This document shows positions 2,862 to 60,208 of a stretch of DNA of 64,000 nucleotides, one piece after another. The stretch's first letter is position 1. Each line of letters opens with the position of its first letter. The position numbers and the translations under genes are program-made. Where the stretch lies: positions 204,600,001-204,664,000 of the forward strand of contig OZ024742.1 in assembly GCA_964016885.1 (NCBI GenBank), read 5' to 3'. The notes under the pieces were generated by a model that had not been told where the DNA came from, ran no database searches, and was given only the letters and a program-made list of their open reading frames with translations. Origin of the DNA: Eledone cirrhosa. Lineage: Eukaryota.

Positions 2862-3100
2862 ATATAGAGATTACAATAATCAAAGTTCAGTTTAAGTCAT
2901 GACTTAAACTGAACTTTGATTATTGTAATCTCTATATAACTGCTCTGTAAAACAACTGATGTTATTACATTGAGCTATTTATCTTACTGGTAATAGGATA
3001 GTAATTAATGACTATCTTTCACTATTTAAGGTTTGTATAAATAATATATTACCATTAAAGGTTTTATTACATACATAACCATAAATAGTATCCTTAATAC
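2862..3100 (+). mobile_element. Ultra-short fold-back PLE-tail insertion (family of 20604-24767)
   Basis: Perfect palindrome 2862-2936, then a tail nearly identical to 24600-24765. Confidence 0.75.
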
Positions 3101-3134
<34 letters not shown>

Positions 3135-3180
3135 ATATAATATATATATATAATATATATAAATAATATATATATATATA

Positions 3181-4440
3181 TTGGATTAAATGCTCTGAAA
3201 TAGCGATATATATGTGAAGATAGACATAGAATATTCGAAAATATTCTGTATGTTTATAATAAACATTTTGAAGACCTAATCGCTATAGAATAGAATACGT
3301 CACGTATTACAATTAGATTCTCGATAAAAGCAAGGGAAGTAACCTACGCGTTTCATTCTTATTAGAAATCTTCAGGATTACATATCCAGTGCTTTTATCG
3401 AGAATGACACAGCTAGAGACTTATAGAATACTTAGCTGTGTACAGGAACTGGTTTGAAAGAGCGGTTGCCGGTCCGGCAGAAATTAGAAATTGGATTAAA
3501 TGCTCTGAAATAGCGATATATATGTGAAGATAGACATAGAATATTCGAAAATATTCTGTATGTTTATAATAAACATTTTGAAGACCTAATCGCTATAGAA
3601 TAGAATACGTCACGTATTACAATTAGATTCTCGATAAAAGCAAGGGAAGTAACCTACGCGTTTCATTCTTATTAGAAATCTTCAGGATTACATATCCAGT
3701 GCTTTTATCGAGAATGACACAGCTAGAGACTTATAGAATACTTAGCTGTGTACAGGAACTGGTTTGAAAGAGCGGTTGCCGGTCCGGCAGAAATTAGAAA
3801 TTGGATTAAATGCTCTGAAATAGCGATATATATGTGAAGATAGACATAGAATATTCGAAAATATTCTGTATATTTATAATAAACATTTGAAGACCTAATC
3901 GCTATAGAATAGAATACGTCACGTATTACAATTAGATTCTCGATAAAAGCAAGGGAAGTAACCTACGCGTTTCATTCTTATTAGAAATCTTCAGGATTAC
4001 ATATCCAGTGCTTTTATCGAGAATGACACAGCTATAGACTTATAGAATACTTAGCTGTGTATATTCTATAGCGATTAGGTCTTCAAAATGTTTATTATAA
4101 ACATACAGAATATTTTCGAATATTCTATGTCTATCTTCACATATATATCGCTATTTCAGAGCATTTAATCCAATTTCTAATTTCTGCCGGACCGGCAACC
4201 GCTCTTTCAAACCAGTTCCTGTACACAGCTAAGTATTCTATAAGTCTCTAGCTGTGTCATTCTCGATAAAAGCACTGGATATGTAATCCTGAAGATTTCT
4301 AATAAGAATGAAACGCGTAGGTTACTTCCTTGCTTTTATCGAGAATCTAAGTGTAATACGTGACGTATTCTATTCTATAGCGATTAGGTCTTCAAAATGT
4401 TTATTACAAACATACAGAATATTTTCGAATATTCTATGTC

Positions 4441-4442
<2 letters not shown>
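3181..4442. mobile_element. Retrozyme-like 310-bp tandem repeat: about 2.8 units (HHR on -) plus about 1.2 inverted units (HHR on +)
   Basis: ttggattaaa recurs at 3181, 3491 and 3801. Inversion junction at about 4061/4062. One HHR per unit; no ORF. Confidence 0.85.
4283..4325 (+). ncRNA. Type I hammerhead ribozyme (copies on - at 3339-3381, 3649-3691, 3958-4000)
   Basis: gtaatc-CTGAAGA-tttct aata agaat-GAAA-cgcg-TA-ggttac. Stem I is extended past an internal loop by ttctcgataaaagca/tgcttttatcgagaa. Confidence 0.88.
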
Positions 4443-4472
<30 letters not shown>

Positions 4473-4542
4473 ATATAATATATATAAATAATATACATTT
4501 ATATGTATATATTATATATATATATGTATAATATATATAAAT

Positions 4543-4628
<86 letters not shown>

Positions 4629-4646
4629 ATATAATATATATAAATA

Positions 4647-4677
<31 letters not shown>

Positions 4678-4701
4678 ATTATATATATATATATAAATAA
4701 C

Positions 4702-4732
<31 letters not shown>

Positions 4733-4776
4733 ATATAAATAACATATATATATATATATAATATATATATATATAT

Positions 4777-4818
<42 letters not shown>

Positions 4819-4845
4819 ATATATATATAATATATATATATATAA

Positions 4846-5035
4846 TGAGGGCGGTGGATTGGCAGTATCGGTAGAGGGTCGGACGCCATGCTTTCCAGCA
4901 TAGTTACGTCCCTTTACGTTCTGAGTTCAAATCCCGCCGAGGTTGACTTTGCCTTTCATCCTTATGGGGTCAATAAAATAAAGTACCAGTAATGCACTGG
5001 GTAATTGCTGGCCTTGTGCCTAAAGTAGAAACAAT
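4846..5035 (+). mobile_element. Full-length tRNA-derived SINE (Meta-domain-like body); fragments at 5756-5860, 15830-15965, 27425-27487
   Basis: A-box-like tggcagtatcgg, B-box gagttcaaatccc, body gcctttcatcc..ggggtc(g)ataaaataaagtacc. Confidence 0.85.
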
Positions 5036-5700: not shown

Positions 5701-5964
5701 ATAATATATATAATATATATATATATAATATATATATATATTATATATATTATATATCCCGCCGAGGTTGACTTTGCCTTTCATCATTACGGGGTCGATA
5801 AAATAAAGTACCAGTAATGCACTGGGTAATTGCTGGCCTTGTGCCTAACGTAGAAACAATTATATATATATATTATATATATATATATTATATATATATT
5901 ATATATATATTATATATATATATATATATTATATATATATATATATATTATATATATATATATA

Positions 5965-8677: not shown

Positions 8678-11232
8678 TAAGGCGGGTAAAATTCCCGAGA
8701 TCCATGGACGAGTTCTCTCCAGCGGTCTCTGTCTCTCATTATCGCTGCCATGTCCTGCGTCTCCAACAGACCAGTGTCTGTCCTTAGGGCATCAACATAC
8801 GTTAACCTTGGTCTTCTTCTTCTAGTGTGTCCATGTAGGGGCTCCCACATGAGCACTGAGTGCAATGTCAACTCTGGATGTCGGTGAGCATGTCCAGCTA
8901 ACCTCAGTCTCCTCGAGGAGAGTGGTATACAGATACTTGCGATCCAAGAACACAGGATCCTACACGATGAGCCCGTGAGGAGTGTGATGATTGGGAAGAG
9001 GAGCCAGCTCATCACTACATCGGCAGTGAAGAACATGACCAATGCTGCATTGGGGGGAGTGGGTTTTGTTTTCAGCACAAAAACCAGTCTATTGGTGAGG
9101 GAAATAATGCCTGTCTATCCGCGAGTGTTGAGGGTGACCTTCAATGGAAACCCAAGACTGACAGTCATCTCAGCCTATAGTCCAACCGAGGGGGACAGTT
9201 ATGTGAGTGCGGAAGAGTTCCATGAGGAGGTGTGTAGAGCTGTCAACACCACTCCGTCACAAAATATCCTGCTTGTTTGGGGGGGACTTCAATGCACATC
9301 TGAGTAAGGAGGGCAGTGAAGATCCTTGCTGGTACTTCCATAACAACACCAACCGAAATGGAAGACTACTGAGAGACACCCTGCTGGAGGCGAACTTGAT
9401 AGCGACCAACCTAAGGTTTAGGAAGAATCCGGGGAAGATGTGGACCTACATCTCAGATATGCACCTGTCCAAGTCCCAGATTGATTTCATTCTGGTGAGG
9501 AAAAAGTGGCGGAATAGTGTTCTGAACACAGAACCATACAACTATTTCAGTACACTGGGTAGTGACCACCGGCTTGTTATGAGTGAGGTCCGGGTGAGCT
9601 TAAGAAAGAGCAAGGCTCGGCCCCGGAGAGCAATCTATGACTGGGGAGCTTTCAAGGAAGATGATAAGCTACAAGAGAGGTTCACAGTGGAAGTGAGAAA
9701 CAGGTTCAGTGCTCTGTGTGGAGAGTCAGAGGAGTGAGAGATTGGATGGACTGAGGAGAGTGTGACGAGGAGGTAAGGGCACTTCACCAATGCAGTGGCG
9801 GACCCTGGTGACGATAAAAAAGAACAAAAAGACGCACGTCAGCTCTGCAAACCCAAAAGTGTGTGCAGCCAGAGAACACCTGAAAGCTGCCAAGGACCAA
9901 TTCTATGCTGATCCTACGGAGGAGAGGAAGGAGACTATAGAGGTGATGAGGGAAGAACTGTGTACCGCTTACACTGAGGCCAGAGAGGGGACACTGATAG
10001 AGAAGATCAGAAGTGTGGAGAGAGCGGTTGACAGATCTGGATGTAAGGAGAGCTGGATGATCATCAACGAGATCACAGGGGGGGGGTCTGTAACCGGGCA
10101 CTGGAGAAAGGAGTTGCCCCAAATCAGTGGAGGATCAGTAACATCGTCCCAGTGCCAAAGAAGGGAGATCTCTCTAACACCAACAACTACAGGGGGATCT
10201 CACTGACGTCACTTGTGGCAAAGACCCTCAACAGGATGATTCTTAACAGGATCCAGCCTGAGATGGAGAAGAAGCTCAGAGAGAACCAGAACGGCTTCAG
10301 AGAGGGAAGATCAACCACCAGTCACATCCTGATGCTGAGGAGGATATTAGAGGGAGCTAGAGCAAAGTGTCTTCCTGCGGTCATGGTTTTCATTGACTTT
10401 AGGAAGGCCTTTGATTCTGTGGACCGTCACTGCCTGATGAAGATCTTACAGGTTTATGGAATCCCCAAGAAGATAGTGGACCTGATATCACTGCTCTACA
10501 CAAACAGCAAAGCCCAAGTCATTACACGTGATGGGATGACAGAGTTCTTTGAGATACTGGCTGGAGTGCTCCAGGGAGATACATTGGCTCCCTACCTTTT
10601 TATCATCGTAGTGGACTATTGTATGCGCCTTGCACTGGAGAAACACCAGGACTCTGGCTTTACTGTAGCACCGGCTCAGAGCAGGAGAGTTAAGGCGAAA
10701 AAGGTATCGGATGCTGAATTTGCCGATGACATAGTTTTGGTGACAAATACAGTGAAGGAGGCAGAGGATTTGATGCGGGAGGTTGAGACTGTGTCGATGA
10801 GTGTGGGGCTGAGAATGAATGAGACTAAAACAAAATATCTGGTAGAGAATGTTGAGAAGCCAGAGGGGATCACTAATGTAGGCGGGAAGCCGCTAGAATT
10901 GGTTGAGGGCTTCCTGTATTTGGGAGCAAAGATTGGGAATACGGAAGATGATGTGGTTGAGAGGAAGGGCAAAGCCTGGGCGGCGTGCCACAGCTTGAGA
11001 TCGGTGTGGAAGTCGGACCTTCGTAAAGACCTGAAAATCCGTCTCTTCATTGGTGTAGTGGAGTCTGTGCTGCTGTACGGGTCTCAGACCTGGACACTGA
11101 CCAAGAAACTCACTCAGATGGTGTATGGGTGCTTCACGAGAATGCTGAGGATGGCTCTGAACATTAATCAGTATACACTGAGGATGAAAAAACTCAGAGC
11201 TGTATGGGAGCATCCCAAAAGTCAGCTCAAAA
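8678..11232. mobile_element. RTE-clade LINE with 5' inversion (3' end on - at 8678-8915; APE-RT body on + at 8915-11232)
   Basis: APE motifs (SAYSPT, GDFNAH, QIDFIL, SDHRL) and RT motifs (NYRGISL, FIDFRKAFDSV, GVLQGDTLAP, FADD). C-terminus RRLRLAGH..HPE..WEP is on the opposite strand. (TAGA)n tail. Confidence 0.9.
8975..11232 (+). pseudogene. Frameshifted APE endonuclease-reverse transcriptase ORF
   Basis: ORF pieces 8975-9307, 9207-9737, 9790-10206, 10152-11342. Confidence 0.88.
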
Positions 11233-11396
11233 GAATATGTATATATATATTATATATATATATAATATATATATATTTATTAAATAACAGATTAAACTTT
11301 AAGCAAAGAATCGCTGCTTTCACCCTTAACGGGATCTTCTGAAACTAACAAAGTCAATCTGTAAACGCAGAATATATATATTATATTGTTATACTT

Positions 11397-11597: not shown

Positions 11598-11708
<111 letters not shown>

Positions 11709-11851
11709 GAGTTTATGTTGGTTGTATACCAACACATGAGTATGCAGGCTGGAGCACTCGACGAAGTGTGCAGGTTGGTTTGGTTACTCCGGAGTAGTGT
11801 AAAATAAAGTTAAATAAAAAGTCAAATGATTAAAATTTAGCTTCGTTTATT

Positions 11852-11906
11852 ACTGCTATATATAATTCAGTGACAGCCATCTTTGGCTGTGACCTCTTCA
11901 GGCAGT
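11852..11906 (-). ncRNA. Hammerhead ribozyme variant in the PLE 3' end
   Basis: Reverse complement: actgc-CTGAAGA-ggtc acagcca aaga tggctgt cact-GAAT-tatata-TA-gcagt, then AATAAA. Confidence 0.7.
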
Positions 11907-13096
11907 TTGAATTAGTATGGTATAGACAAGTACATATGTTGTTGAGGTGTATAATATTGTCAATACTCTGATATGCCCAGTTCCTGGTTGGGTTGTTATT
12001 TCACTGAGGAACTGGTATCATATGAATTCAAACAAACGAATTTCAGTGTCAAAGGTCCTCTTCTCCTCTCATTGGTCAGTTATTAGAACATTCCTCATTC
12101 TAAGTGTTGTTATTGTTGGAGTTAGCTTAAAAAATTGATAAAATAGTAGAAGGGACAAGGTGTTAAAGGAACAAAATAACAAACAAAGTGTCAAACTTCC
12201 CATTGGTCAGTTCTGAGAGCATTCCTCACTCAGAAGTCTATAGAATTCTTTCTGGGGTGAGGCTCCCTGTAGTGTTTTTGTTTGCTATTGTTAAGTACAT
12301 TTGACATCTACCATTATTCTGGTAGTGTTGTTGGTGTTGCGGTCAGCTTATATCTTGCTGCTGCTAACAATTTAGAAGTATCCAGTGTGTGTTTTTTTCT
12401 TAATCCCTCCTGCCACCATCTCTCATAGTGGTGGGGGGGGGGGTTCTTCCATGTATATGAAGAAATATAAGGCAATAAATGAAGAAAACAGAAAATAAAT
12501 AAATAATATAATAAAATAATTAATATAATTTGTATAATTTGAAAATAAATAAATAAAGAAAGAATCAATGAAAAATTGGTGAAAAAGTAATGAAAATGAA
12601 TATGGAGAAGTGAAAAATAATGTAGGATAAAGTGTGTGTGTGCTATAACCAATCTCAAGGTCAGAAATATGTTGGATAGATTGGTATGAGGCCAAGATGT
12701 TAAGATAAGATAAGATAATCAAACTAAATGTGTTTGTGTTATAATCAATCTCAACTTAAAAATAAATATAAAGTGATACAGTGAAGAGGGCAGAAAACAA
12801 ATAACAAATTAATAAAGAGAAATCAAGATTTAAAATTGGAACTTGAAAATCAGAAATCTAGTAAATTAAAAAGTGTTTGTGTTATATAGATGTTGGCCAA
12901 ATTATAATGGCTGTGTCCGATTCTATCTCTAGGCTATCCTGGTGTCTGCTCAGCCTGGGTTGTTCCCTTGAGGGGAGTTCACAACCTAGGGTGTTGTTAC
13001 TGCCCATATAGCTTGAAGGAGGTCTGGCCGAGAGGTGTTTTCATGTTCTGTAGAAGTCCCTATAGCTTGAGGGGAGTTCACATCTTCTTGTGTTGC

Positions 13097-14933
13097 TACT
13101 GTCCATATATCTTGAGAAAGGTCCCGGCTCTAAGGTGTCTGCATGTCCCGAAGAAGTCGGTTCTGGGGTTTATAAGGCCGCTTCCACCTCTTAGTATCTC
13201 GAGGGTCTCGTTCAGGCATAGTTTGCATATGCAAGATCCCCCTTTATCGGGTTGTACTTTCCTGATTATGTACCAGGCCAGAGAGCATGGGGTCCTGTCC
13301 AGCTTAAGCTTCCAGATCAGGTCGGAGAGAGCTGTGCTTTTCGTTTTGGCCTCCTTGAATGAATGGCGATGGTTGTACCAGCGGTCTTTAAAGCTCGTTG
13401 ATGTGGCTCCTATGTAGAGGTGTTCGGAGTTGGGTGTTTTAACCCTACAACCGTATACTAGATTCTTCTTGAGGCATTCATTACCAAGGGGGCATGATTC
13501 GGGGTTTCTGCAGTTGCAGAGGGTGGTCGGCCTCTGCGTGCCTAGATTAGTGTTCCCGTTATGTGTTACATGTTGGTCTTTCCCCAGGCTCGGTGGGGGG
13601 TCCTCGGGTCTGTTTGGGTTCTTGGGTGGGCTCTGGGTCCCCCCTTCCCTCCTTTCACATGGTTCTGCTGAGTGTTTGTATAGCCATCTTCAGGTTGTGT
13701 GTAGTTTTTAAGCCTACTTCTGTTGATGCTAGCTATGTGTTGGACCAAATTTCTCGTGGTGGAATACGAGAGCTTCACAGTGTGTCGGTTGAAGATCCTG
13801 TGGTATCTGTAGTCCCTCGGGAAGCATTTGTCAAGTGCTCCAAAGAATAATCGGGCCAAGCTTTTCTTTAGGGCCGCTGAGTAGGGTGGGTTGAACCACG
13901 TGATTTGTCGGTGTCTCATCCTATATGTGTGGGTCGGGGGCGTCGTGATTTGTTGGAGATTTGTTGGGTTGCTGGTGGTTTCCGCACTGTTGCTTCCCCT
14001 TTGGGCTCTATGCTTTTTGTTATCTTCGCGGCCCGAATTTGTGGGGTGGTCGTTGTACGCCCCAGGAGATCCATCGTGGGGTGGTCGCCCCCCCCCCCTA
14101 CGTGTCTTGCGGTTGGGGTCGTCTGTCCTGGGGTGGTTAGCGTCACGCCTGAGACTGCTACTCATATTGTGCTCCATCTCGTGGTCAAGCGCACTAGTCC
14201 CCACCGCCCGTGTGGTGGTGTCGGGCACATGGTTCCTATTTGATTCTGCTCTGCCTGTATTGTTAGGGCTCGCCCCCCCCCCCCGGGCAACGCGGTTGTG
14301 GGTGTCTGTTGGGCTATCCCCATCCCGGCTTTTCGGACTATATGTTATATTTTGGCCATGTGCCACCTTCTTTAGAGCTGCGTTGTAATATTCCGCGTGG
14401 TTATTGAATATTACCTTACTTGCGGACAGGCTGGAGATCCTGTCCGAGACACTCTTCACCACTGCCTTGGTTATGGATCTAGGGTGGTTTGATTTGGCGT
14501 TAACATATACGAGTTTCTCGTTGGGCTTGTGGTAGGGGTAGTATTGCTCGGTGTCCAGGTTTAGGGTGGTGTCTAGGAAGTTAACTACCTTCCTATTTGG
14601 GTCTATTTCTATGCTGAGCCCATGGTTCTTAAAGAAATGGCGAATACGCCTCCTCATACTCTCCAACATATTGGTGCTGTGGTTATGTACTGTGAATAGA
14701 GCATCGTCACAATATAATCCGCCGCCCAGGCAGGGGATTTCATCTTTTATCTGCTTCAGCAGGTAGAGCCCAACGAGGTCCGTTACCTGCGCTGAGTCGC
14801 TGGAGCCCATCGTGATGTCAAAGTTATTTGGCCAATCGCTCCTGGTCCAAAGGTCTCCATCGAAGCGGATTAAGGTCTTTCTTGCGGCGTGGATGATGCT
14901 CACCTCCTCTCGGGTTAGGTCCGTATTGAACAT
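13097..14933 (-). pseudogene. PLE reverse transcriptase plus GIY-YIG endonuclease (interrupted)
   Basis: DITMGS, YCDD, FLDTTL, SNHPRSI, WFNPPYS; then, translated by hand, CNCRNPESCPLGNECLKKNLVYGC..LYIGATSTSFKDRWYNH..CKLCLNE. Confidence 0.88.
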
Positions 14934-15002
14934 CCTAAAAATAGGGCCTTATTAAGTATTATATATATAGCAGTAATAAACGAAGCTAAATTTTAATCAT
15001 TT

Positions 15003-15120
<118 letters not shown>

Positions 15121-15971
15121 TATATATATAATATATATATATAATATATATATATAATATATATATATATATATAATATATATATATTATATATATCTAT
15201 AATATATATTATATATATATATATAATATATATATATATAATATATATATATAATATATATTATATATATATATATAATATATATATATAATATATATTA
15301 TATATATATATATAATATATATATATATAATATATATATATATATAATATAATAAATATTATATATATATATAATATATATATATATAATATATATATAT
15401 AATATAATATATATTATATATATATATATAATATATATATATATAATATAATATATATTATATATATATATAATATATATATAATATATATTATATATAT
15501 ATATAATATATATATAATATATATATATATAATATATATACAATATATATATATAATATATATATTATATATATATAATATATATATTATATATATATAA
15601 TATATATATAATATATATATATATATAATATATATATAATATATATATATATATAATATATATATAATATATATATATATAATATATATATATAATATAT
15701 ATATATATAATATATATATATAGATATAAAATATATATATATATAATATATATATTATATATATATATATAATATATATATATAATATATATATTATATA
15801 TATATAATATATATATAATATATATATAATATAGTTACGTCCCTTTACGATCTGAGTTCAAATCCCGCCGAGGTTGACTTTGCCTTTCATCCTTACGGGG
15901 TCGATAAAATAAAGTACCAGTAATGCACTTGGTAATTGCTGGCCTTGTGCCTAAAGTAGAAACAAATATAT

Positions 15972-18042: not shown

Positions 18043-19548
18043 ATATCACGATAAATTAACGGAGGCATAGGCCGTCGTTATTCCCTGTAAATAATGTGCT
18101 CAAAGGGGAGATCCTGAGCCCTTTAAAATATAATATGTTGAGAAGGTAACACACCAGAGAGAGATATATAGTGTGTTATCAATAATACAGGGAAAAAAAC
18201 CACCAGTGTATGGAATCTATAACCTATGAAAGGCAGACTATAGACATGATAATTAAAAATATAAATTAAAGCGTAAATAAATACCTCTATAACTATATAA
18301 CACACGTACAAATCCAAAGATATGTTTCACAAAAAAATTTGTTGAAAGAAATGGTTTAGTCTCGGTTCATCAGCGTGTGTAAGGCCATACATTTCAGACA
18401 ACACTAAGAGAATTTTACAATTGACTGTCCAGCTATACGTGGGAGAGAGAAGTCACAGCGTGTTTACGGGCAGTGAACCAGTGGATCTCTTCCCCTTTGA
18501 CCACATTATTTACAGGGAATAACGACGGCCTATGCCTCCGTTAATTTATCGTGATATTTCGCTCCTAATAACAGTCTTTCCATCTCTGTTTGGTTGAGCA
18601 CACTTCTCTGAGTGGCTTTGGGCTGCCCTTTCTAGCAGTTCGTCTCTCAGAGGCCACTGGTTCACTGCCCTTAAACACGCTGTGACTTCTCTCTCCCACG
18701 TGTAGCTGGACAGTCAATTGTAAAATTCTCTTAGTGTTGTCTGAAATGTATGGCCTTACACACGCTGATGAACCGAGACTAGACCATTTCTTTCAACAAA
18801 TTTTTTGGTGAAACATATCTTTGGATTTGTACATGTGTTATATAGTTATAGAGGTATTTATTTACGCTTTAATTTATATTTTTAATTATCGTGTCTATAG
18901 TCTGCCTTTCATGGGTTATAGATTCCATACACTGGTGGGTTTTTTCCCTGTATTATTGATAACACACTATATATATCTCTCTCGTGTGTTACCTTCGCAA
19001 CATATTATATTTTAAAGGGCTCAGGATCTCTTCCCCTTTGAGCACATTATTTACAGGGAATAACGACGGCCTATGCCTCCGTTAATTTATCGTGATATTT
19101 CGCTCCTAATAACAGTCTTTCCATCTCTGTTTGGTTGAGCACACTTCTCTGAGTGGCTTTGGGCTGCCCTTTCTAGCAGTTCGTCTCTCAGATTCCACTG
19201 GTTCACTGCCCTTAAACACGCTGTGACTTCTCTCTCCCACGTGGAGCTGGACAGTCAATTGTAAAATTCTCTTAGTGTTGTCTGAAATGTATGGCCTTAC
19301 ACACGCTGATGAACCGAGACTAGACCATTTCTTTCAACAAATTTTTTGGTGAAACATATCTTTGGATTTGTACGTGTGTTATATAGTTATAGAGGTATTT
19401 ATTTACGCTTTAATTTATATTTTTAATTATCGTGTCTATAGTCTGCCTTTCATAGGTTATAGATTCCATACACTGGTGGTTTTTTTCCCTGTATTATTGA
19501 TAACACACTATATATCTCTCTCTCGTGTGTTACCTTCTCAACATATTA
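18043..19548. mobile_element. Retrozyme-like 541-bp repeat: about 0.8 unit inverted plus about 2 direct units
   Basis: 18483-19023 is repeated at +541. 18043-18484 is its reverse complement. One HHR per unit. Confidence 0.85.
19299..19379 (+). ncRNA. Type I hammerhead ribozyme (copies 18758-18838 on +, 18300-18380 on -)
   Basis: acacacg-CTGATGA-acc...ggt-GAAA-ca tatc tttg gatt tg-TA-cgtgtgt: perfect 7-bp stem I, GUA site. Confidence 0.88.
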
Positions 19549-19868
19549 TATATTATATATATATACATTATATATATATATTATATATATATATATTATA
19601 TATATATATATTATATATATATATATAATATATATTATATATATCTATATATATATATAGTAAATATATATATATTATATATATATATATATATTATATA
19701 TATATATATAATATATATTATATATATATATAATATATATATAATATATATATATATATATTATATATATCGTTAACTACTTTTCCTATCAGAATGAACT
19801 CATGAAAAGATTCGAAGGAAACACCATAAGAAATATACAGACCCGGCGCATAGATGTACCAGCTATAG

Positions 19869-20391: not shown

Positions 20392-20436
20392 GCTCTGATG
20401 TTTCCTACCCAACGGTATGGATGAAACATTGTAAGC
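20392..20436 (+). ncRNA. Degenerate hammerhead in PLE-like tail (about 20050-20600)
   Basis: gct-CTGATGT-ttcc tacc caac ggta tggat-GAAA-cattg-TA-agc, then AATAAA and CATTGAG. Confidence 0.65.
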
Positions 20437-21702
20437 AAATAAAAACTGTTTGATTATGTAAGCGTTCTTTGGTTTCTTTTACATATAACGACTCTGTTCT
20501 CGTACATTGAGCAAATACAATACCGTCAAAATATAACACGGTGCGTGTGTGTTTATACACATGCACTCCGTGCTATTCGTACGTAAATAAATACTTATAT
20601 ACGTATAGAAATTACATGAATCAAAGTTCTGTTCAAATCATTTATTCGCTTACAATTGTTTCTTCCAAACCGAGGTTTGGAGTCTTCGGAGCAATTTTTC
20701 AATGATTGTTTACATACATGACCTCCTTTCCAACACAAGAGACATACAGAAACTTATGTATACGTTGATGCACAGTGGGTTGACATCCATTATAATATTT
20801 TAGCATGGCAATTTACATTCAAAGATTAAAGTCATATTAAAAGAAAACAAAAATAAAGTTAAAATACAGTTAAAATACAACATTGGCAGTTTACGAAGAT
20901 AATGCAAGAGGATAGTTAGAAGTAGTTAGTGTATGCAATAGTTACACGTGGGGCATGCATGTGTGTTTTATTTATATAAGATTATAGTGCGGCAGGGTGT
21001 TATATGTAATACAAGCACTTTAAGCGGGCAATCAAGAGTATTATGGGGGTTGTATTGGTAATGTATTTTTTATATGTATGATATAGAAGCTTGTGTGCAG
21101 AGAAATATTAAAAATATTAAAAATGAGAAGCAAAACAATGTTATGGTTTTCGTATACACCACCATTTTCACAATCCAGGAAACGTAATATATAGATTATA
21201 TGTCCTTCACATAATCTACGATGATTCAATATTGGATGCTTGATGAATTATGTTAGAATATTATAGCTTGTTGTTCTTTAATCCAATTTTATAGAGCAGG
21301 TTGTTTTTGTTGCGAGAATTAACATCGTATTATTTTCCGGAAGTGTGTGTGTGATTAAGGGGAGTTAATGCGTGAGGGGAGGTAATAAGCTGATTTCTAT
21401 AACTAAATTTATTATCCTAATGTACATTAAATGGTGTCTCAAATGAGTCTCTATCATATAAGGTTATAAACAGTTTCTAAATTTAAGTATCCTATCTATA
21501 AATTACAGTGTAGTCTATCAAGAGGTACTAAAGGTGTTCATATTAGGATGATTACCCTCTATCATAGAGTGCCACAACCGAATATTCCACATGAAGAGCC
21601 AGATCCCCAAATCAATGATCTTTGTAAGTGTAGTCTACCCGCAGAACCTTCACTTCTACTTATAGACTATAAAAATTCAATATAGAAAGAACTAGAAAAC
21701 TA

Positions 21703-23035
21703 TTGCACAAGACATTCAAAAACTATAACCTTAGTATCACCATGGACAAAAACACTAAAAAGGTTAACTTCCTGTACGCCACCCTCTGCCTAGACTCAAA
21801 GATATATACACCTTTCCATAAACCTAACGAAAAACTCATTTACGTAGATACCAAGTCTAACCACCCTAGATCAATATTAAACTCTATCTCTAAGGGAGTA
21901 TCCAATAGAATCTCTAATCTATCATATGACGTAAACATATTTAGCAAAAACTCGCAATATTATAATCAGGCATTAGCTAGATCAGGCCATAATATAGAGA
22001 TCGAGTTCCTACCTACAAAAACACATAGCTACAACATTATTTCGCACAATATGTCCATGAGGAAATTTAGTAATAAGAATAGCAACCACACACACACTAA
22101 TACGGAGGATGCCATCAAAAGTAACCCACACCACAGAAATTACCATAGTACCATACAAAGAAACAACTCACCAGACATAAAAAACAAAAATAGAAGAAGA
22201 AATAATACATTTTTCAACCCTCCTTTCAATCTAAACGTCTCTACCAACCTACCTAGGGCTTTCTTCTCACTACTAGATAAAAACTTCCCATCTGGCCACA
22301 AGTACCATAGCCTTTTAAACAAAAAGACTATTAAAATCTCCTACTCTACTACGCCTAACATAGCATACCACATAGCTAGTAGCAATAAAAGAAAAATTAA
22401 TTCTTACTTCCAACAAACTAAATCACAACAGACGATAAACCTTCAAAATAACATTATATCAACTAACCCTAATAACAATAGAAATAATAGTAATAGCACT
22501 AGTGTAAGCAATAACGCTGGGAAAGACAACCCCCATAACCATAATCCTATAGCTACCATCCAGACTTCTACACAACATAATAACCGGCAGACTAACACCC
22601 AGAATAATTGTAACTGTAGATCAAATAGAACCTGCCCTTTAGATAAAAAATACTTAATCAAGGATATCATATACTCATGCACCGTCACAACTAGCAACTC
22701 TTCTAAAACCTATATAGGCTCTACTTCAAACTGCTTCAAAACCAGATACAATTCGCACCTCCACTCTTTCAAAAAACAGTCTAGCCAACTCCACTTCACT
22801 ATCTAGCTACATACACTATCTAAAAACTAAAAATAAATCTTATACACTTAAATGGGAAGTGATAGGTAACGCGACATCGTACAAACCACCTAATAAATTT
22901 TGTAACCTCTGTCTACTAGAGACCCATACTATTATCTTCTCAAACCATAACCTCCTTAATAAAAAATCAGAAGTGTTCGCGTCTTGCCAGCACCGCTTCC
23001 GACACTCCTTCCAAAACTTTAAACCCAATATATAA
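21703..23035 (+). pseudogene. PLE RT thumb, linker and GIY-YIG endonuclease remnant
   Basis: FHKPNEKLIYV..SNHPRSI, FFNPPFN, KISYSTTPN, CNCRSNRTCPL..IIYSC..TYIGSTSNCFKTRYNSH; frameshift near 22780. Confidence 0.88.
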
Positions 23036-24514
23036 CAATGTCAAACTTGAACCCGTCACCACCTCTAGCAACAAACCTCAAGGGCACACCTTACACCACA
23101 TCTCCACACTCATTGATCCACTTTAACACAAATAGTGACATCCTTCTTGAACCTTTTACCCTAGAGATATCCCCATGTACATCTACTTTTTATATATTTG
23201 CCTTCAATTACTTAGACTACATTACACCACTATATAATTAATGTAAACTTTAAACACTGAATTGGTTGTGCTAATGTTGTTCTGTGTATAGAGTACCTTC
23301 ATTGGATAAATGGAAGATTAATTAATTTATTAACATAAAAGAGCTATATAACCTATATGCTGCGTGCAATGAATTATGTACAAGTGATGTATGAGTTATA
23401 CATACATGTATGACTTGATGGTCAGATTAGTGACATTGTAAGTGAGAATTGATCTCTGGTCTACCCTAGTGATATTTAACTTTGCCATGCAATCAGACAT
23501 GCACTGACCCAGAGCTTACCAGGAGTTGTATATAGAAGTGATTCTAATAAAACCCTGCCAGGTTCTGCGGGTAGACTACACTTACAAAGATCATTGATTT
23601 GGGGATCTGGCTCTTCATGTGGAATATTCGGTTGTGGCACTCTATGATAGAGGGTAATCATCCTAATATGAACACCTTTAGTACTTCTTGATAGACTACA
23701 CTGTAATTTATAGATAGGATACTTAAATTTAGAAACTGTTTATAACCTTATATGATAGAGACTCATTTGAGACACCATTTAATGTACATTAGGATAATAA
23801 ATTTAGTTATAGAAATCAGCTTATTACCTCCCCTCACGCATTAACTCCCCTTAATCACACACACACTTCCGGAAAATAATACGATGTTAATTCTCGCAAC
23901 AAAAACAACCTGCTCTATAAAATTGGATTAAAGAACAACAAGCTATAATATTCTAACATAATTCATCAAGCATCCAATATTGAATCATCGTAGATTATGT
24001 GAAGGACATATAATCTATATATTACGTTTCCTGGATTGTGAAAATGGTGGTGTATACGAAAACCATAACATTGTTTTGCTTCTCATTTTTAATATTTTTA
24101 ATATTTCTCTGCACACAAGCTTCTATATCATACATATAAAAAATACATTACCAATACAACCCCCATAATACTCTTGATTGCCCGCTTAAAGTGCTTGTAT
24201 TACATATAACACCCTGCCTCACTATAATCTTATATAAATAAGACACACATGCATGCCCCACGTGTAACTATTGCATACACTAACTACTTCTAACTATCCT
24301 CTTGCATTATCTTCGTAAACTGCCAATGTTGTATTTTAACTGTATTTTAACTTTATTTTTGTTTTCTTTTAATATGACTTTAATCTTTGAATGTAAATTG
24401 CCATGCTAAAATATTATAATGGATGTCAACCCACTGTGCATCAACATATACATATGTTTCTGTATGTCTCTTGTGTTGGAAAGGAGGCCATGTATGTAAA
24501 CAATCATTGAAAAA

Positions 24515-24563
24515 TTGCTCCGAAGACTCCAAACCTCGGTTTGGAAGAAACAATTGTAAGCGA
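24515..24563 (+). ncRNA. Type I hammerhead in the PLE pseudo-LTR (inverted copy 20646-20694)
   Basis: ttgct-CCGAAGA-c tccaaacc tc ggtttgga a-GAAA-caattg-TA-agcga, then AATAAA. Confidence 0.8.
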
Positions 24564-24834
24564 ATAAATGATTTGAACAGAACTTTGATTCATGTAATTT
24601 CTATATAACTGCTCTGTAGAACAACTGATGTTATTATATTGAGCTATTTATCTTACTGGTAATAAGGTAGTAATAAATTACTGTCTTTCACTATTTAGGG
24701 TTTAAAATATATATAACTATAAAAGGTTTTAGTATATACATAACCATAAATAGTATCCTTAATACTTATATACATATACATTTATATTTATACGTTTACA
24801 TTTATATATATATACATATACATATATGAATATA

Positions 24835-27370: not shown

Positions 27371-27863
27371 GATGGCATTAATTAATAATTACTTAATAAT
27401 TAATTAATAAAGTACCAATAATTAATTAATAAAGTACCAGTAATGCACTGGGAAATTGCTGGCCTTGTGCCTAAAGTAGAAACAATTAATTAATAATTAC
27501 TAATAATGTTATATCGTGCAATGGCCATACTCGATAACGAAGGGCGCAGCCATTATGTATTTATGTAGTGACCAACGGTAACAACACGATCCAGCCACTG
27601 AATGATCGTCGTTGAACAACAGGCTCTCCACCTCCTCACCAGCACACTCACACCTAGCTACCAATTAGTGACGTTCACATTCATAAAAAGAGCGAAACCC
27701 TATTTAAGAACATTCACTTTCCATTTTAAACGGCAATTGTTATCAATCACTAGCTGAAACTTATAGTAACTGCAAATTGTTGTGTTTCGCCTGTGAGGAC
27801 ACAAGCGAAAATCCAGAATAACAAAACGCAAAACTTGGCCTTAATAAAGAATATATATATATG

Positions 27864-28949: not shown

Positions 28950-29757
28950 TCAGCTGTCCAGAGGATATGGACATATATTTACGGCTATAGATGTCAGCAG
29001 TCCAGCAGATGTCACCTGTCCAGCGGTATGTACATTTATATAGTTATAGAGGTTGTGGACATATAGTTATAGATGTCAGCTGTCCAGAAGATGTTAGCTG
29101 TCCAGCAGCTCTCCAGCAGATGTCCATCTATACATGTCAGGTATCCAGCAGATGTGGACATATATATACAGCTATAAATGTCGGCTGTCCAGCAGTGTGG
29201 ACATTTATGTAGTTATAGATGTCAAGATATGATGACAATATATGATGCCTATTCACAAAATTTCAGCAAATTTTAATTTTTCATGCATTACATTTTATAT
29301 TGAGTAATATTGAAATGTAGAGTTTTTCTCCATAAATTATATCAATGATTTAAAATCAATCATCATTTTCTTACAAAAAAAATGCTTGTATATATATATA
29401 CAGTTATAGATGTCAGCTGTCCACCAGATATTGACATATATATATATATATATATACAGCTACGTATGTCGGCTGTCCTCGAGATATGGACATGTATATA
29501 TAGTTATTGATGTCAGCTGTCCACCAGATGTGGACACACACACATTATATATATATATATAAGTTATTCCGGGTTGAATCGAGGATAACCACAGTAAGTA
29601 AGGTACTCAATACATAGCAGAGTATAAATGTTTTAATATAGAAAAGGTTCTACAGGACTAGAATTGTTTAATTCGTGAGAAATCATCAGGAAGCTGTATA
29701 TATATATATATATATATATATGCAGATATAGATGTCAACTATCCACCAGATGTGAAC

Positions 29758-29907: not shown

Positions 29908-29911
<4 letters not shown>

Positions 29912-30433
29912 CGTTTCTGAATTTGTTTAGCAAGATTCTTTATCTGAAAACGTGTGTTGAAACCGTTATACTTTGGGAGGGTCATGTTGCCAATAAGAAA
30001 CACACGCACCAGTTGCTTTCACTTCAATTTATTATAATAAATTTATAAATTTAGGAATTTATAAATTTCCGGTTGGTTGGTTGGTTGGTTCCACAACCAG
30101 ATGGTTGTTTATATATTGTCAAAGTTCTTTTGTCACACATTATGTGACCTCTTCAGTGACTGGGATTTTTTTCTTTGTTCATCTTCAGAAGATGGCGTAG
30201 GACAGAACAAAGGAGAGGCACAAAAACAAAGAAAAGAATCCCCAGTCACTGAAGAGGTCACAGAATGTGTGACGAAAGAACTTTGACAATATATAAACAA
30301 CCATCTGGTTGTGGAACGAACCAACCAACTGGAAATTTATAAATTCCTAAATTTATAAATTTATTATAATAAATTGAAGTGAAAGCAACTGGTGCGTGTG
30401 TTTCTTATTGGCAACATGACACTCCCAAAGTAT

Positions 30434-30440
<7 letters not shown>
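29908..30440. mobile_element. Fold-back non-coding derivative of the PLE at 46172-47852; HHRs at 30245-30287 (+) and 30118-30160 (-)
   Basis: Inverted arms about 29965-30180/30225-30437. gtca-CTGAAGA-g gtcaca gaatg tgtgac-GAAA-gaac-TT-tgac. Confidence 0.8.
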
Positions 30441-31177: not shown

Positions 31178-31752
31178 GTTGGTGCTACTGGTAACATGTA
31201 TCCCAGTACAACCTGTCTCATGGTCGGGTCGTTGGCGACTAAACTGGCAACCCCACCAAGGTTTCTTGGTGGGGAGGGTGACTTTGGACATCCTGCAGGA
31301 CTAAAAACAAAACCTGTCAAAGAGCAAAGGACCTAATCACCGGGAGAGATGACTCCTTAGCCTTTGTCAAGGCAGAATTCTAGGAGAAGGAAAACTCTGA
31401 TATAAAACCTGCAACCCTGATGGTATCCAATGATGTTGACTTGTTCTTCTTTTTCGTAAATATCATATTGGTTAAGAGAGTGGGACTGGCTTTGTGCAGT
31501 GCCTTTGCTCACTATAAAAGCTTCACGGCACAGGCACTGCTTTATATCTGGAGATCTCTCTGCACTTGTCGTCACATGGTACCATGGGCCCTGCACTATG
31601 TGTCAACAATTGTCACAAGTGTAGTGTTTGTACCAGAGTTTTCAAGTCGCTGGCTGGACTAAAAAGTCACACCCGTTCAGTGCATTGGTAGGGGTTCTCC
31701 TACATGGATATAAAGTAGTGGCCGTACTCGAAAACGAGTTGGCAGCCACCAT
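31178..31752 (+). mobile_element. RTE-derived bipartite non-autonomous retroposon (about 600 bp)
   Basis: RTE-5'UTR-like ctaggagaaggaaaactctga. The 3' part encodes a C2H2 remnant [20 protein letters not shown], then hairpin ctcgaaaacgag and a (TATG)n tail. Confidence 0.75.
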
Positions 31753-32490
31753 GTATGTATGTATGTATGTGTATCAGGTCGCTCTTCGGCGCTACTAGTA
31801 ATATGTAAGCCAGTACAACCTGTCCATGGTCAGGTAGTCGGCGGCTACACCGGCAACCCTACCAAACTTACTTGGTGAGGAGGATGAATTTGGACACCCT
31901 GCGGGATGAAAAAACAAAATCCGTCAAAGGCGGAGGAACTCAGGAGAGTCAACGGCTATCCAATAATTTTTATTTAATTTTTTTTTTTTTTTTATTGTAG
32001 CGAGAGATTCCTAATCTTCATAAAACCTGCGACTTCGTTTGCATCCAATGATGTAGACCAATTATTCTTTTTAGGTAAATGCATTCGATGTTCAGACAGC
32101 GGGATTGGCCCCGTGCAAAGCGTTTCCTCACTTAAAATAACATCAAACACAGGCATCGTTTGATATGTGATATTTTTGCGATGCATGTCATTGCTGACCA
32201 TAGGCAAATCCCTAGCAGGACTAGAAAGCCACGTCCGTGACGCCCATGTTTGAGTATCAAGCGCTGGCATTACTCGAATTTGAGTTGCAGCCATCATGCA
32301 TGCATGCATGTATGTGCTAAATATAAACATATACAAGGTGTAGTAGTTTGCCTGGAGCATTATGGAATATGAAGATATAATGTATGTATATGTATATATT
32401 CTTTTATTATTTTAGTGATTTCAGGCATTAGACTTTGGCCATGCTGAAGCACCACTTTAAAGTGATTTAGTTGAATGTTCCAACCCAATA

Positions 32491-42431: not shown

Positions 42432-43315
42432 TACATACACATACATATACATACATACATATACATATTTTTTCAAAAATTGCAAAGAATATATTAACTA
42501 GGTATACATCCAAAACACATCCCATTCTATGATTACATGACACTCTGCAATCCGTCTGTATAAGGATACTAATTTTAAGCCAATTAAATTAAATTTTTAG
42601 GTTGACTAAATTTAAAACCAAATTATAAATATATTTCTAAAATGTATATTAATTAGGTCTATAATACTAAAAATTATTTCTCTGTCATTGGATACACGAT
42701 ATTTTGTTATATTTTATCTGTAAAGGAATTTTAATAAAAGGTTTAAATAAATTAAAATTAATCTATAAATTAAATTACTAAGTATATATTAGTAATATTT
42801 AAAGGTTTTTCACAATTTATGATTACACAATATTTTATATTCTCATCTGTAGTAGAATTTTAATTAAATTAAATTTATAGGTTAACTAACATTTAAATTA
42901 AATTAATTTCTAAAATAATGTTATTAATTAGGTTTATAATATTTAAATGTTTTTTTTAGTTTATGATTACACGATATAATTAATTCCTGTCGTTTATTTA
43001 ATAGGATATCCTTAGATTTCATTATTTCAAATAGTTCTTGGGAACATAATCTACATTCATTTCTATTATATTGATAAGGGGTGGCTCTTTTGAGCACACT
43101 CCAGGTCAAATCATATTGTATATTCTTATTTTTATAACTATTGATTTTTTCTGCTAGAGATGTTGTATTAGCCAGTGCGGCATTTTTAAAACTATGCTTG
43201 TGGGTATTAAACCTTGTCTTAAAATTGTTAGAGGTAGCTCCTATATATGAGCAAATAGAATCTTTAGTTTTAACATTACATTTATAGACTATGTTGTTAA
43301 CAAGACAATTCCCTA
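38992..43315 (-). mobile_element. 5'-truncated PLE: GIY-YIG remnant, about 3.9-kb 3' region, HHR and tail
   Basis: 42924-43315: [47 protein letters not shown] on the same strand. Continuity of the intervening DNA is inferred. Confidence 0.6.
39188..39340 (-). ncRNA. Hammerhead ribozyme with stem II region of about 115 nt
   Basis: Reverse complement: tcattattt-CTGAAGA-cggcgtatatgtgt...acacatatatatccta-GAAA-cgatcg-TT-aaataatga (perfect 9-bp stem I). Confidence 0.8.
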
Positions 43316-43870: not shown

Positions 43871-45989
43871 TAGCAGATTTACCCGGCGTTTCTCGGGGTT
43901 GGAAATTATGCTAGGAAGTAAAAGAAGAACATTATTTGTCCCCAACCTGTCAAAATAAGCAGAAGTCTTCAATAATTAATGCAAACGAATATTTAGTGCA
44001 ATCTTTCTACACATAAAACTATGCTGATAATGAAGGAAAACACTGAACAGGATGTAGTTATACAAATGATTAAAGACAATACACGTTGCAAATCTGTAAA
44101 AAAACACGCAGTTTTGTTAAAGTACAAAAAGTTGTAATGAAAGCAGAGTTGTATACAAACAAAAAAACAATGAGAGTAGAATAAGAGAAAATCTATTCTT
44201 TGAGAGCATCCTTTGCTGTGTATGGTTAAATTTTTAACTTATAATCCCAAATATCCTGCATGACATATTCATTGGTATGTTTTGTAATGAGTAAGGTGAA
44301 GTCAAGGCAGAGCTGTAATAAGTTTTTTTGTTAACACTAAAGCACTTCAGGATAGACGATATTCTTTGTTTTTCTTTTCAGAACAAACGCAAAGAGATTA
44401 TCTCGACTGCCAACTCGTGAGCAGGCAACGTAGAATTGTCCGTGCGAAAAGCAAGGTTCATCCAAGTGAATTCCAGCGACGGACAGAGTTTGACCTTGCG
44501 ACTTGTTTATGGACATCGCAAAGGCAATACGAAGGGGAAATTGGGTTCGGCGAAAGGAGACCGGAGTATCCACGCCTGATGTAGTCAGGCTAATTTTTGT
44601 TATTATCACATCCTCGCCTTTTCCACATCCAGATAGAATGGTAGCGTCAATACTAAGTGGAGACAGTTTTTTAACCACAAGGCGTGTACCATTGCATAGT
44701 TTTGGAGGAGTGATATTTCTCAGCAAAATAACTGGTGTTCCCTCTTTCAGAACCAATGTATTAGGAGGTAAACCAGGAGGAATTAAAGAATTTAGAAATT
44801 CAACTGGATAATTGACCGTAATCCTGTGGATCACATACAGTATCAATAGATTTATATATCCGTGGACATCCAGGAAGAAGCTGAAGAAGCTGATCGTTAA
44901 TACAGCTAACCGTGATATTTATGGGTCCAAGAATGGCTCTTTCGCATAGCCAATCAAAATTCGTATAGTTATCACGCAAGTTCGGGAATACACTCGCCTT
45001 GAGATCATCGACAGTTTCAACTACATTGCAGATGTGATCAATTGCTATGTGTCCATCTGTATCCGGAGGTAGGTTACCATCTCCTATTGTAAGAATGTCT
45101 CCAGAAAATGTTGATGACAGAGGGTCCCCATGCAACCTTGCACGCATGTTGGTAGTTAATCTTAATGATGTCACTTGTCGCCACAATGGTGAAGACTTAA
45201 GACATGCATTTACCGCATCTGCTCTTGTTCCTTTCGGTATTATAGGAAGAGTCTGTCTGAAGTCTCCTGATAGCAGAAGGGCGACACCCCCCATAACATC
45301 ACTGCAATCCCGTATGTCTTGCAAAGTCTTTGGTTATATGACAAGTAGGAGTTTCCAATTTTGCCAAATCAAGGAGCAATTTAAAAAATGAATGTGCCGT
45401 CCTTCCACCAGGGAGCAAAGTTGCTGCCTTTCATATTTTGTACTGTCTCTGCAGATCTTGCTGCAGCAGTAGCCGTAGCATCCATAGCAAGGCGTGTTTC
45501 ACGTAGCTCTGAAGTCTCTGCAGCTCGTGCTGCAGCAGTTGCTTTAGCGTTATTGGTTCGACGAACTAACCGACGCTCAGCGGCGGACAAAGATGTTGCA
45601 ATAACTGTACTCACCGCATTTAGTGATTGTCTATTTTTGGTTATAGGCGGAGCGTCGTTTACACGCATTGTTTTCTTCGACCGATAGCCAATATGTGCAT
45701 ACTTTCTTTTACGGGGCATATTTGGTGAAAAGGTTATCTCCCTTTTTTAAAAGGATTATTAATAAAGTTTGTTATCTCCCTTACATCAATTTTTCTACCA
45801 ATAAATTTGATATCGATTTTTATTGCTCTACGTGGGGCGATTTAAAAAGTGTTTGTGATGTGACAATCTTAGCGACCTGTGCAACGTGCACAGAAAATTT
45901 GGTCAAATTCAGTTGGTAATTGTGAAAGCCTTATGCATGCAAAGTTGTACACAGACACACACACATCGTCGCTTTTATATATATAAAGA
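43870..45989 (-). mobile_element. Internally deleted Helitron with both termini
   Basis: a|TCtttatatata 5' end; cccgagaaacgccggg hairpin plus CTAG|t 3' end. N-terminal ORF 45381-45719 is joined to Pif1-like helicase fragments. Confidence 0.9.
44337..45330 (-). pseudogene. Helitron Pif1-like helicase C-terminal part (frameshifted)
   Basis: [60 protein letters not shown]. Confidence 0.92.

Positions 45990-47849: not shown

Positions 47850-47852
<3 letters not shown>
46172..47852 (-). mobile_element. PLE GIY-YIG remnant flanked by inverted pseudo-LTRs; HHRs at 46338-46382 (-) and 47585-47629 (+)
   Basis: CKTRNVVYSIRC..VYIGETARS..EAVSIKELQPKLN. Arms about 46174-46552/47415-47794. agtca-CTGAAGA-ggtcaca gagtg tgtgac-GAAA-ggac-TA-tgact. 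Confidence 0.88.
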
Positions 47853-49463: not shown

Positions 49464-53021
<3,558 letters not shown>

Positions 53022-60014: not shown

Positions 60015-60016
<2 letters not shown>

Positions 60017-60208
60017 GTTTTAATATAGAAGAGATTCTACAGGACTAGAACTGTTTCATTCATTAGAAATCATCAGGATTCCTGATGATTTCTAATGAAT
60101 GAAACAGTTCTAGTCCTGTAGAATCTCTTCTATATTAAAACTATTATACTCTGCTATGTATTGAGTACCTTACTTACTGTGGTTACCTCCGATTCAACCC
60201 GGAATAAC
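60015..60208 (+). mobile_element. Fold-back HHR element; HHR at 60076-60126
   Basis: Palindrome 60015-60143 plus tail. ggattc-CTGATGA-tttc taat gaat-GAAA-cag ttctagtc ctg-TA-gaatct. Confidence 0.8.

What the first reader, a model, noticed from the sequence alone, without database searches (positions are those of the whole stretch)
3181..4442. 310-nt retrozyme with rolling-circle signature
Seen: about 2.8 near-identical tandem units plus about 1.2 inverted units, no ORF, one intact HHR per unit with a 15-bp distal stem I beyond an internal loop, and a second hairpin (acacagcta/tagctgtgt). The two arms begin and end at different phases of the unit. Known: non-LTR retrozymes are short HHR tandem repeats expressed as circRNAs. 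Inference: both arms were copied from a circular RNA, recently given their identity, probably by a PLE reverse transcriptase.
Basis: partly seen in the sequence, partly recalled or inferred. Interest (0 to 1): 0.8.

Follow-up and report, generated by a model that had tools for sequence, protein, structure and literature searches.

The report
Hammerhead retrozyme with Penelope-type ends
A 310-base non-coding repeat carrying a hammerhead (predicted self-cutting RNA) motif sits as two back-to-back arrays in a TA microsatellite with outer ends 40 bases apart, which likely marks it as a retrozyme pasted in by a Penelope-type jumping-gene enzyme, probably copying a small RNA circle.

Summary
3180-4061 is 2.85 units of a 310-bp repeat, and 4062-4443 is 1.23 inverted units. 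Each unit has one type I hammerhead and no ORF. The family is abundant in sequencing runs, and 10 of 10 common variants in the ribozyme region keep its fold. It fits the known animal non-LTR retrozymes.

The 'rolling-circle signature' is overstated. Both arms point their 3' ends outward into (TA)n, 40 nt apart. That matches the Penelope 'tail', and all 11 other two-armed structures I examined in this window have such an overhang. The inner ends look like 5' truncations. The ribozyme is a weak, dimer-type one (1-bp helix III, U.U in helix II), so uncut linear multimers could also be the template. A circle remains likelier (about 0.55), since each arm crosses the cut site and neither ends there. 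No RNA data were available.

The scan has already noted a 310-nt two-armed family elsewhere in this genome, and similar elements in other genomes. Verdict: known class with an apparently unpublished Penelope footprint; moderate interest.

The parts
3101..3179 (.). Left (TA)n target tract
3180..4061 (-). Arm A: 2.85 tandem 310-bp units, ribozyme sense on - strand; 5' end at 4061 (phase 213), 3' end at 3180 (phase 165)
3180..3219 (-). 40-nt 3' extension of arm A beyond the point where arm B ends (PLE-type tail; edges uncertain by 1-3 nt because of TA microhomology)
   Evidence: tail defined in 10.1101/2021.04.23.441226 and PMC11167929
3318..3404 (-). Type I hammerhead with extended stem I, core at 3375, predicted cut 3345/3344
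3628..3714 (-). Type I hammerhead, core at 3685, predicted cut 3655/3654
3937..4023 (-). Type I hammerhead, core at 3994, predicted cut 3964/3963
3345..3654 (-). Predicted cut-to-cut monomer, 310 nt, 34% GC; its ends are brought together by stem I
4041..4070 (+). Head-to-head junction at 4061/4062; 4041-4049 is complementary to 4062-4070 (9 bp, 12-nt loop), a candidate snap-back scar
   Evidence: weak as a free DNA hairpin
4062..4443 (+). Arm B: 1.23 units, ribozyme sense on + strand; 5' end phase 53, 3' end phase 125
4260..4345 (+). Type I hammerhead of arm B, core at 4289, predicted cut 4319/4320
4444..4844 (.). Right (TA)n target tract

Best explanation
This is one insertion of an abundant 310-bp hammerhead repeat with two head-to-head arms in a TA tract; it is likely a non-autonomous retrozyme that a Penelope-like endonuclease/reverse transcriptase copied into cut (TA)n DNA, probably from a circular monomer RNA. 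Steps: (1) tandem copies are transcribed (inferred). (2) Two ribozymes pair through the palindromic helix III and cut out a 310-nt monomer, whose ends are held together by stem I and are ligated by a host ligase (predicted, by analogy with PMC7229834). (3) The PLE enzyme nicks both strands in (TA)n and starts cDNA at two internal sites 40 nt apart, phases 165 and 125 (end positions shown; priming inferred from PMC11167929). (4) The cDNAs run past the cut site, three times in arm A and once in arm B, and stop at phases 213 and 53 (crossing shown; circle inferred, about 0.55, against uncut multimer about 0.35 and template jumping about 0.1). (5) The arms join 5' to 5', perhaps by a short snap-back of arm A's cDNA end that then anneals to arm B's cDNA (inferred, about 0.4).
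For: Unit, arms and phases. Canonical-type hammerhead: 6-bp proximal helix I, UAU bulge, 6-nt loop 2, aligned along HH9; 1 of 20,000 shuffles. Dimer fold 7 kcal/mol below two monomer folds on a natural three-core stretch. Family abundance: 9,347 of 12.5 million and 6,996 of 12.8 million RAD reads, and 557 and 736 contigs, lie on one unit; 2,046 X21 reads pass straight from unit to unit at an edge depth of about 2,150. 10 of 10 common variants in the 87-nt ribozyme region keep the fold, while 31% of all and 52% of transition changes would (variants are not independent). At six sites where the locus has the minority letter in X21 reads (at most 8-30%), 4 of 4 passes across both arms carry it, so both arms share one template lineage. 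One-sided overhangs in 11 of 11 other two-armed structures (55-91 nt in nine, 167 in one, overhangs on both sides in one), including 46176-47851 with a hammerhead core and a GIY-YIG-like ORF. Loose ends into TA repeats at 3516 in 9 contigs each of X1 and X2, the point to which arm B's own end aligns on by chance. PLE tail, inverted 5'-truncated copy and (TA)n bias are described in 10.1101/2021.04.23.441226. Snap-back: a 9-nt match arises in 168 of 96,100 phase pairs, and 5 of 9 other centres are perfect stems of 21-65 bp with loops of 0-4 nt.
Against: No RNA, cleavage or circle was observed. The ribozyme has two weak points, and in the free-energy minimum the core is mispaired. PAc in vitro uses unprocessed RNA and does not need cleavage (PMC11167929). 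In Xenopus, 8 of 9 predicted retrozyme dimers did not cut in vitro (10.64898/2026.07.22.740005). A linear transcript of a homogeneous array would also give identical passes. No autonomous partner was found: outside the locus the unit matches the window only at a 28-30-nt ribozyme core. Recurrence of the long 3' end (phase 165) is weak: 1-2 contigs, and the 3490 A>T variant may belong to a subfamily. Only 24 of 205 loose-end rows were shown, and contigs lose single-copy branches, so random ends would be under-seen. The snap-back test was post hoc, and the junction is not a stable DNA hairpin (z = -0.8).
Confidence: 0.6

Rival explanations
1. Same element and same PLE enzyme, but the template is a linear, uncut multimer transcript of a donor array; the ribozyme plays no part in making this insertion.
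For: Weak, dimer-type ribozyme. Linear dimers and trimers persist in axolotl (PMC7229834). Unprocessed RNA is the dominant PAc substrate in vitro (PMC11167929). Arm A is only 882 nt. Three private differences cluster in arm A's first 190 nt and three in arm B's last pass, as if the passes came from different donor units.
Against: The fold is kept in 10 of 10 common variants, which suggests cleavage matters to spread. The six private differences are not common variants. No end at the cut site among the rows shown.
Confidence: 0.27
2. A stack of bare pseudo-LTRs from a 5'-truncated autonomous PLE, not an independent retrozyme.
For: Tail, inversion and TA target are PLE traits; ORF-bearing neighbours look alike; retrozymes derive from pLTRs (10.64898/2026.07.22.740005).
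Against: Three head-to-tail units with no ORF between them. Reads pass from unit to unit at near full depth, and none of the loose-end rows shown points to a common upstream body. The ribozyme has canonical helix sizes and G12 core, not the long helix II and extra base of PLE minimal hammerheads (PMC4209133).
Confidence: 0.08
3. Local DNA events: a monomer expanded by unequal crossover or slippage, and the inverted arm came from replication fold-back or an assembly artefact.
For: The locus's own junction (3442/3602 in unit terms) is not listed in the 4 runs laid; two of six private differences are homopolymer indels.
Against: Both outer ends abut TA at PLE-like staggered sites; the same layout recurs 11 times nearby in unrelated sequences; inverted joints at other phases occur in raw reads of two other samples.
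Confidence: 0.05

Closest known systems
Metazoan non-LTR retrozymes of coral, mussel and axolotl (Cervera and de la Pena 2020, PMC7229834; Results parts 1-2 of 3 and Discussion read)
   Same: 150-450-bp tandem unit, one type I hammerhead each, no ORF, GC under 50%, many copies. Helix III of one pair plus a palindromic tetraloop as in HHR_Amex1; U.U at the base of helix II as in HHR_Amex2.
   Different: Here both weak points sit in one ribozyme. The copy is two-armed, head to head, with a 40-nt tail in (TA)n; 'inverted', 'tail', 'microsatellite', 'cephalopod' occur 0 times in that paper's main text. RNA and cleavage are untested here.
Vertebrate non-LTR retrozymes as PLE derivatives (Li, Clavereau and Pollet 2026, 10.64898/2026.07.22.740005; parts 1-3 of 5 read)
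   Same: [quoted passage not shown]
   Different: Their link rests on co-occurrence and pLTR homology; here the link is the insertion footprint. 'tail' and 'head-to-head' occur 0 times in their main text. No pLTR homologue was found in this window beyond a ribozyme core.
EN+ Penelope-like elements (Craig et al. 2021, 10.1101/2021.04.23.441226, passages; Arkhipova et al. 2013, PMC3846280, passages; Frangieh et al. 2024, PMC11167929, parts 1-2 of 4)
   Same: Partial tandems, an inverted 5'-truncated copy, a 30-40-bp tail on one end, AT-rich or (TA)n targets, palindromes at inverted junctions, two internal RT start sites.
   Different: No RT/GIY-YIG ORF; canonical-type rather than minimal hammerhead; the whole body is the repeated unit.

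Membership tests
Metazoan non-LTR retrozyme | Tandem repeat of 150-450 bp | tested here: met
   310 bp, 2.8 copies
Metazoan non-LTR retrozyme | Type I hammerhead with full core in each unit | tested here: met
   4 of 4 units that span the core; below the Rfam HH9 gathering score
Metazoan non-LTR retrozyme | No protein-coding ORF; GC under 50% | tested here: met
   Longest Met-ORF 26 aa, stop-to-stop 59 aa; GC 34%
Metazoan non-LTR retrozyme | Many genomic copies | tested here: met
   Thousands of reads and hundreds of variant contigs on one unit in 4 of 4 runs; no copy number obtained
Metazoan non-LTR retrozyme | Stable self-paired monomer | tested here: met
   z = -3.6, 0 of 100 shuffles as good; 57% paired as a circle
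Metazoan non-LTR retrozyme | Target-site duplication when present; no LTR, PBS or PPT | tested here: inconclusive
   A TSD cannot be read inside (TA)n; no LTR-bounded layout; PBS and PPT not searched
Metazoan non-LTR retrozyme | Self-cleavage in vitro | not testable with these tools
   Only energies for monomer and dimer folds
Metazoan non-LTR retrozyme | Expressed as linear and circular RNA | not testable with these tools
   No RNA reads were at hand
Autonomous EN+ PLE | RT plus GIY-YIG ORF between pLTRs | tested here: not met
   No ORF of 110 aa or more inside 3180-4443
Autonomous EN+ PLE | Inverted 5'-truncated arm and one-sided 30-40-bp tail | tested here: met
   Head-to-head arms, 40-nt tail
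Autonomous EN+ PLE | Minimal hammerhead (long helix II, extra base after A9, G10.1-C11.1) | tested here: not met
   Helix II of 3 pairs plus U.U, no extra base, 6-bp helix I (PMC4209133)
Viroid-like replicon with ribozymes in both polarities | Ribozyme on both strands of the unit | tested here: not met
   The hammerhead descriptor hits one polarity per unit; Rfam finds no other ribozyme

The most novel reading that the evidence does not exclude
The locus is a direct genomic record of a Penelope enzyme copying a ribozyme-made RNA circle from both ends of a break in (TA)n, with the two cDNAs joined by snap-back and annealing. The two fixed start sites and the junction scars would then define the retrozyme-PLE transposition cycle, which the papers read here propose but do not show.
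Probability: 0.3. Interest if true: 0.65.

Novelty: new variant of a known kind. Interest (0 to 1): 0.4.

Why it matters
How animal retrozymes re-enter the genome is open: PLEs are the proposed helper, and circular templates the proposed source of tandems. This copy carries the PLE insertion footprint itself (head-to-head arms, 40-nt tail, TA target), which is more direct than co-occurrence or homology. It also names the positions to test: start sites at phases 165 and 125, and the circle junction at 4319/4320. The element class is known, and one locus cannot separate a circle from an uncut multimer, so the value lies in a testable system, not a new kind of element.

Tried and rejected
No whole genome was held, so copy number, end distribution and partner search could not be done genome-wide; the picture of ends rests on the 24 of 205 loose-end rows shown. 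No RNA holder listed. Read pile-ups at 3485, 3489, 3621 and 3624 fall on AATT sites in RAD libraries and were rejected as restriction ends (my inference); the seven variant positions next to them (3483-3485, 3487, 3488, 3490, 3623) were dropped before the count (26 changes at 25 positions kept, 10 of them in the ribozyme region). Rfam at gathering threshold: 0 hits in the window. A 20-base motif scan of metagenome contigs: 0. No tRNA gene in the window. The promoter scan is bacterial and uninformative (4 found, 2.5 expected); the promoter is unknown. Absence of variants in the 12 core positions alone is not significant (about 0.3 by hand from 25 variable sites in 310). An A-to-G excess in the RNA sense (6 versus 2 U-to-C among kept variants) is too small to call editing. 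Pfam names only 1 of the 4 PLE-like ORF fragments GIY-YIG, below its cut-off; the Atlas hit for 46915-47415 is a lead only (GIY-YIG in 18-27% of members, score 0.92-0.93). Look-ups of earlier notes by sequence and by nearby place were empty, so identity with the earlier 310-nt family is not checked. 'Not in print' rests on searches and finds 60, 61; supplements were not read and may show such structures.

Full report
Observation. The window is AT-rich animal-type DNA full of (TA)n tracts and retroelement fragments. Earlier notes call the host a cephalopod; I did not test that. Between two TA tracts lies a 1,264-bp island, 3180-4443. I number the 310-bp unit from the base after the predicted cut. 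Arm A reads on the minus strand from phase 213 (4061) to phase 165 (3180), 2.85 units. Arm B reads on the plus strand from phase 53 (4062) to phase 125 (4443), 1.23 units. The 5' ends meet at 4061/4062, and both 3' ends face outward into TA. There are six private differences in 1,264 nt, none a common variant in the reads, so the copy is young, or some differences are assembly errors. No ORF: the longest from Met is 26 aa.

Ribozyme. Each arm carries a full type I hammerhead core (3375, 3685, 3994 on minus; 4289 on plus; cut at 4319/4320). A descriptor finds it in 1 of 20,000 shuffled units. Helix I has 6 proximal pairs, a UAU bulge, 3 pairs and a 15-bp distal stem. Helix II has three pairs on a U.U at 10.1-11.1 with a 6-nt loop. 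Helix III is one pair closing CGCG. Rfam aligns it along HH9 but at 17 bits against a threshold of 52. These are the two weak points described separately for the axolotl ribozymes Amex1 and Amex2, which cut poorly as monomers and well as dimers (PMC7229834). Constrained folding favours the dimer over two monomer folds by 7 kcal/mol, and the unconstrained minimum lies 11 kcal/mol lower still, with the core mispaired. So 'intact' is right for the core, but activity is predicted to need a dimer or protein help.

The family. No genome was held. On one unit, 4 of 4 runs gave dense cover: 557 and 736 contigs (one sample), and 9,347 and 6,996 RAD reads from two other samples. In X21, 2,046 reads pass from one unit into the next at an edge depth of about 2,150. 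The AATT-to-AATT fragment 3489-3624, which spans both points where this insertion's arms end, is the deepest part, so most units probably lie inside multimers (inference). After dropping seven positions next to restriction sites, 26 variants remain. The 10 in the 87-nt ribozyme region all keep the fold: N7, loop 2, wobble changes in stem I, and U10.1 to A making a pair. About 31% of all and 52% of transition changes would do so, giving a rough p of 1e-3 for transitions, with the caveat that subfamilies make variants non-independent. At six sites the locus has the minority letter (for example, the other letter in 3,522 of 3,838 X21 reads at 3496 and 3,408 of 3,824 at 3529), and all four passes in both arms carry it. 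Both arms therefore come from one template lineage.

The phases are a Penelope footprint. Arm A's 3' end lies 40 nt beyond arm B's. PLE insertions are described as partial tandems with an inverted 5'-truncated copy and a 30-40-bp tail on one end, often in (TA)n (10.1101/2021.04.23.441226, passages). In vitro the tail equals the distance between two internal RT start sites, and the enzyme cuts and extends both strands of AT-rich DNA (PMC11167929). I picked 11 other inverted structures in this window. All 11 have an overhang: 55-91 nt on one side in nine, 167 nt in one, and both sides in the large 20604-24605 element. Four carry a hammerhead-like core in head-to-head orientation (18047, 29910, 46176, 60016). 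Two include GIY-YIG-type ORF fragments (46915-47415, Atlas lead; 21673-22803, 47% identical over 60 aa to the Pfam-hit fragment at 13099). In the contigs, loose ends into TA repeats cluster at 3516 (9 contigs in each of X1 and X2), the position to which arm B's own end aligns on by chance; I read this as the short end recurring. The long end has weaker support (1-2 contigs near 3485-3488). Inverted joints at other phases (3450/3527, 3537/3684) occur in the RAD reads, and this locus's own joint is not listed. So the outer ends look fixed and the inner ends variable; differing phases do not by themselves show rolling-circle copying.

Circle or multimer. Priming at phases 165 and 125 is internal to the monomer, so any cDNA longer than 165 nt must cross the cut site: arm A does so three times, arm B once, and neither stops there. 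The template was a circle, an uncut multimer, or monomers bridged by jumps. For the circle: the conserved fold implies cleavage matters, stem I closes the monomer's ends, and circles are shown for the class (PMC7229834). For the multimer: the weak ribozyme, linear dimers and trimers in axolotl, PAc's use of unprocessed RNA, and 8 of 9 Xenopus dimers inactive in vitro. I put these at about 0.55, 0.35 and 0.1. One locus cannot decide.

The junction. The first 9 nt of arm B are complementary to 4041-4049, 12 nt inside arm A's end. That 9-mer occurs twice in the unit (phases 53 and 225). A match this long arises in 168 of 96,100 phase pairs (post hoc). Of 9 other centres examined, 5 are perfect stems of 21-65 bp with 0-4-nt loops, 1 is a 19-bp stem with an 8-nt loop, 2 have 6-7-bp central hairpins and 1 has none. 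Two independent truncations would rarely coincide so exactly. A simple reading is that one cDNA end folds back, copies a few bases of itself and then anneals to the partner cDNA. Junction palindromes were noted for rotifer PLEs and read as self-priming on an antisense template (PMC3846280, passages). Against: the junction is not a stable DNA hairpin (z = -0.8).

Comparison and novelty. The element meets every sequence-level criterion for a metazoan non-LTR retrozyme that I could test; cleavage and circular RNA were not testable. It is not an autonomous PLE. The PLE link was proposed in 2020 and argued from homology in 2026. Neither main text uses 'tail' or 'head-to-head', and searches showed no paper on two-armed or cephalopod retrozymes; supplements were not read. 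Also seen: PMC4209133 parts 1-2 of 4 and PMC7761336 passages. My reading was recorded before I saw earlier notes. Those notes describe a 310-nt two-armed family in this genome and similar ones elsewhere; they are unchecked, and their copy numbers are not used as evidence. Verdict: new variant of a known kind, interest 0.4.

Noticed in passing
window 4031-4038 and 4065-4072: The private change at 4035 makes 4031-4038 a perfect 8-bp complement of arm B's 4065-4072; possibly a change templated across the junction.
   Followed up: partly
window 18045-19553: A second two-armed hammerhead repeat: about 541-bp unit, two tandem units on + (cores 18765, 19306), one arm on - (core 18373), 83-nt tail, long helix II, in (TA)n.
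   Followed up: partly
window 60016-60209 and 29562-29696: Perfect palindrome centred at 60079 with a 67-nt tail; its hammerhead-like core and helix II (with U.U) resemble the focal ribozyme. A decayed single arm lies at 29562-29696.
   Followed up: partly
window 46176-47851 and 29910-30437: Two insertions of one PLE family with a hammerhead core (46377, 47590, 30249), 55-60-nt tail, and a GIY-YIG-like ORF fragment at 46915-47415.
   Followed up: partly
window 20604-24802, 11700-14948, 42927-43250: PLE fragments with a cysteine-rich linker before the GIY-YIG motif; 20604-21649 and 23560-24605 are 1,046-bp inverted arms at 99.4%. The 2866-3100 palindrome next to the finding is the 3' end of that same family.
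   Followed up: partly
window 17788 (+) and 48434 (-): Two more hammerhead-like cores in a 146-bp repeat, 94% alike; a third similar core seems to lie near 20396.
   Followed up: no
window 31180-31963, 49532-50136, 51609-52193, 52414-53020, 59331-59947: A roughly 600-bp GC-richer repeat family in five or more copies between TA tracts; not classified.
   Followed up: no
window 4845-5035, 1754-1899, 5756-5860, 15831-15965, 27428-27491: A short repeat family, full length about 190 bp and otherwise 5'-truncated, ending in TA; looks like a SINE (label from recall).
   Followed up: no
window 8888-11342, 55698-59040, 44337-45333: Two broken LINE-type RT elements (Pfam RVT_1) and a Pif1 helicase fragment, probably Helitron-type.
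   Followed up: no
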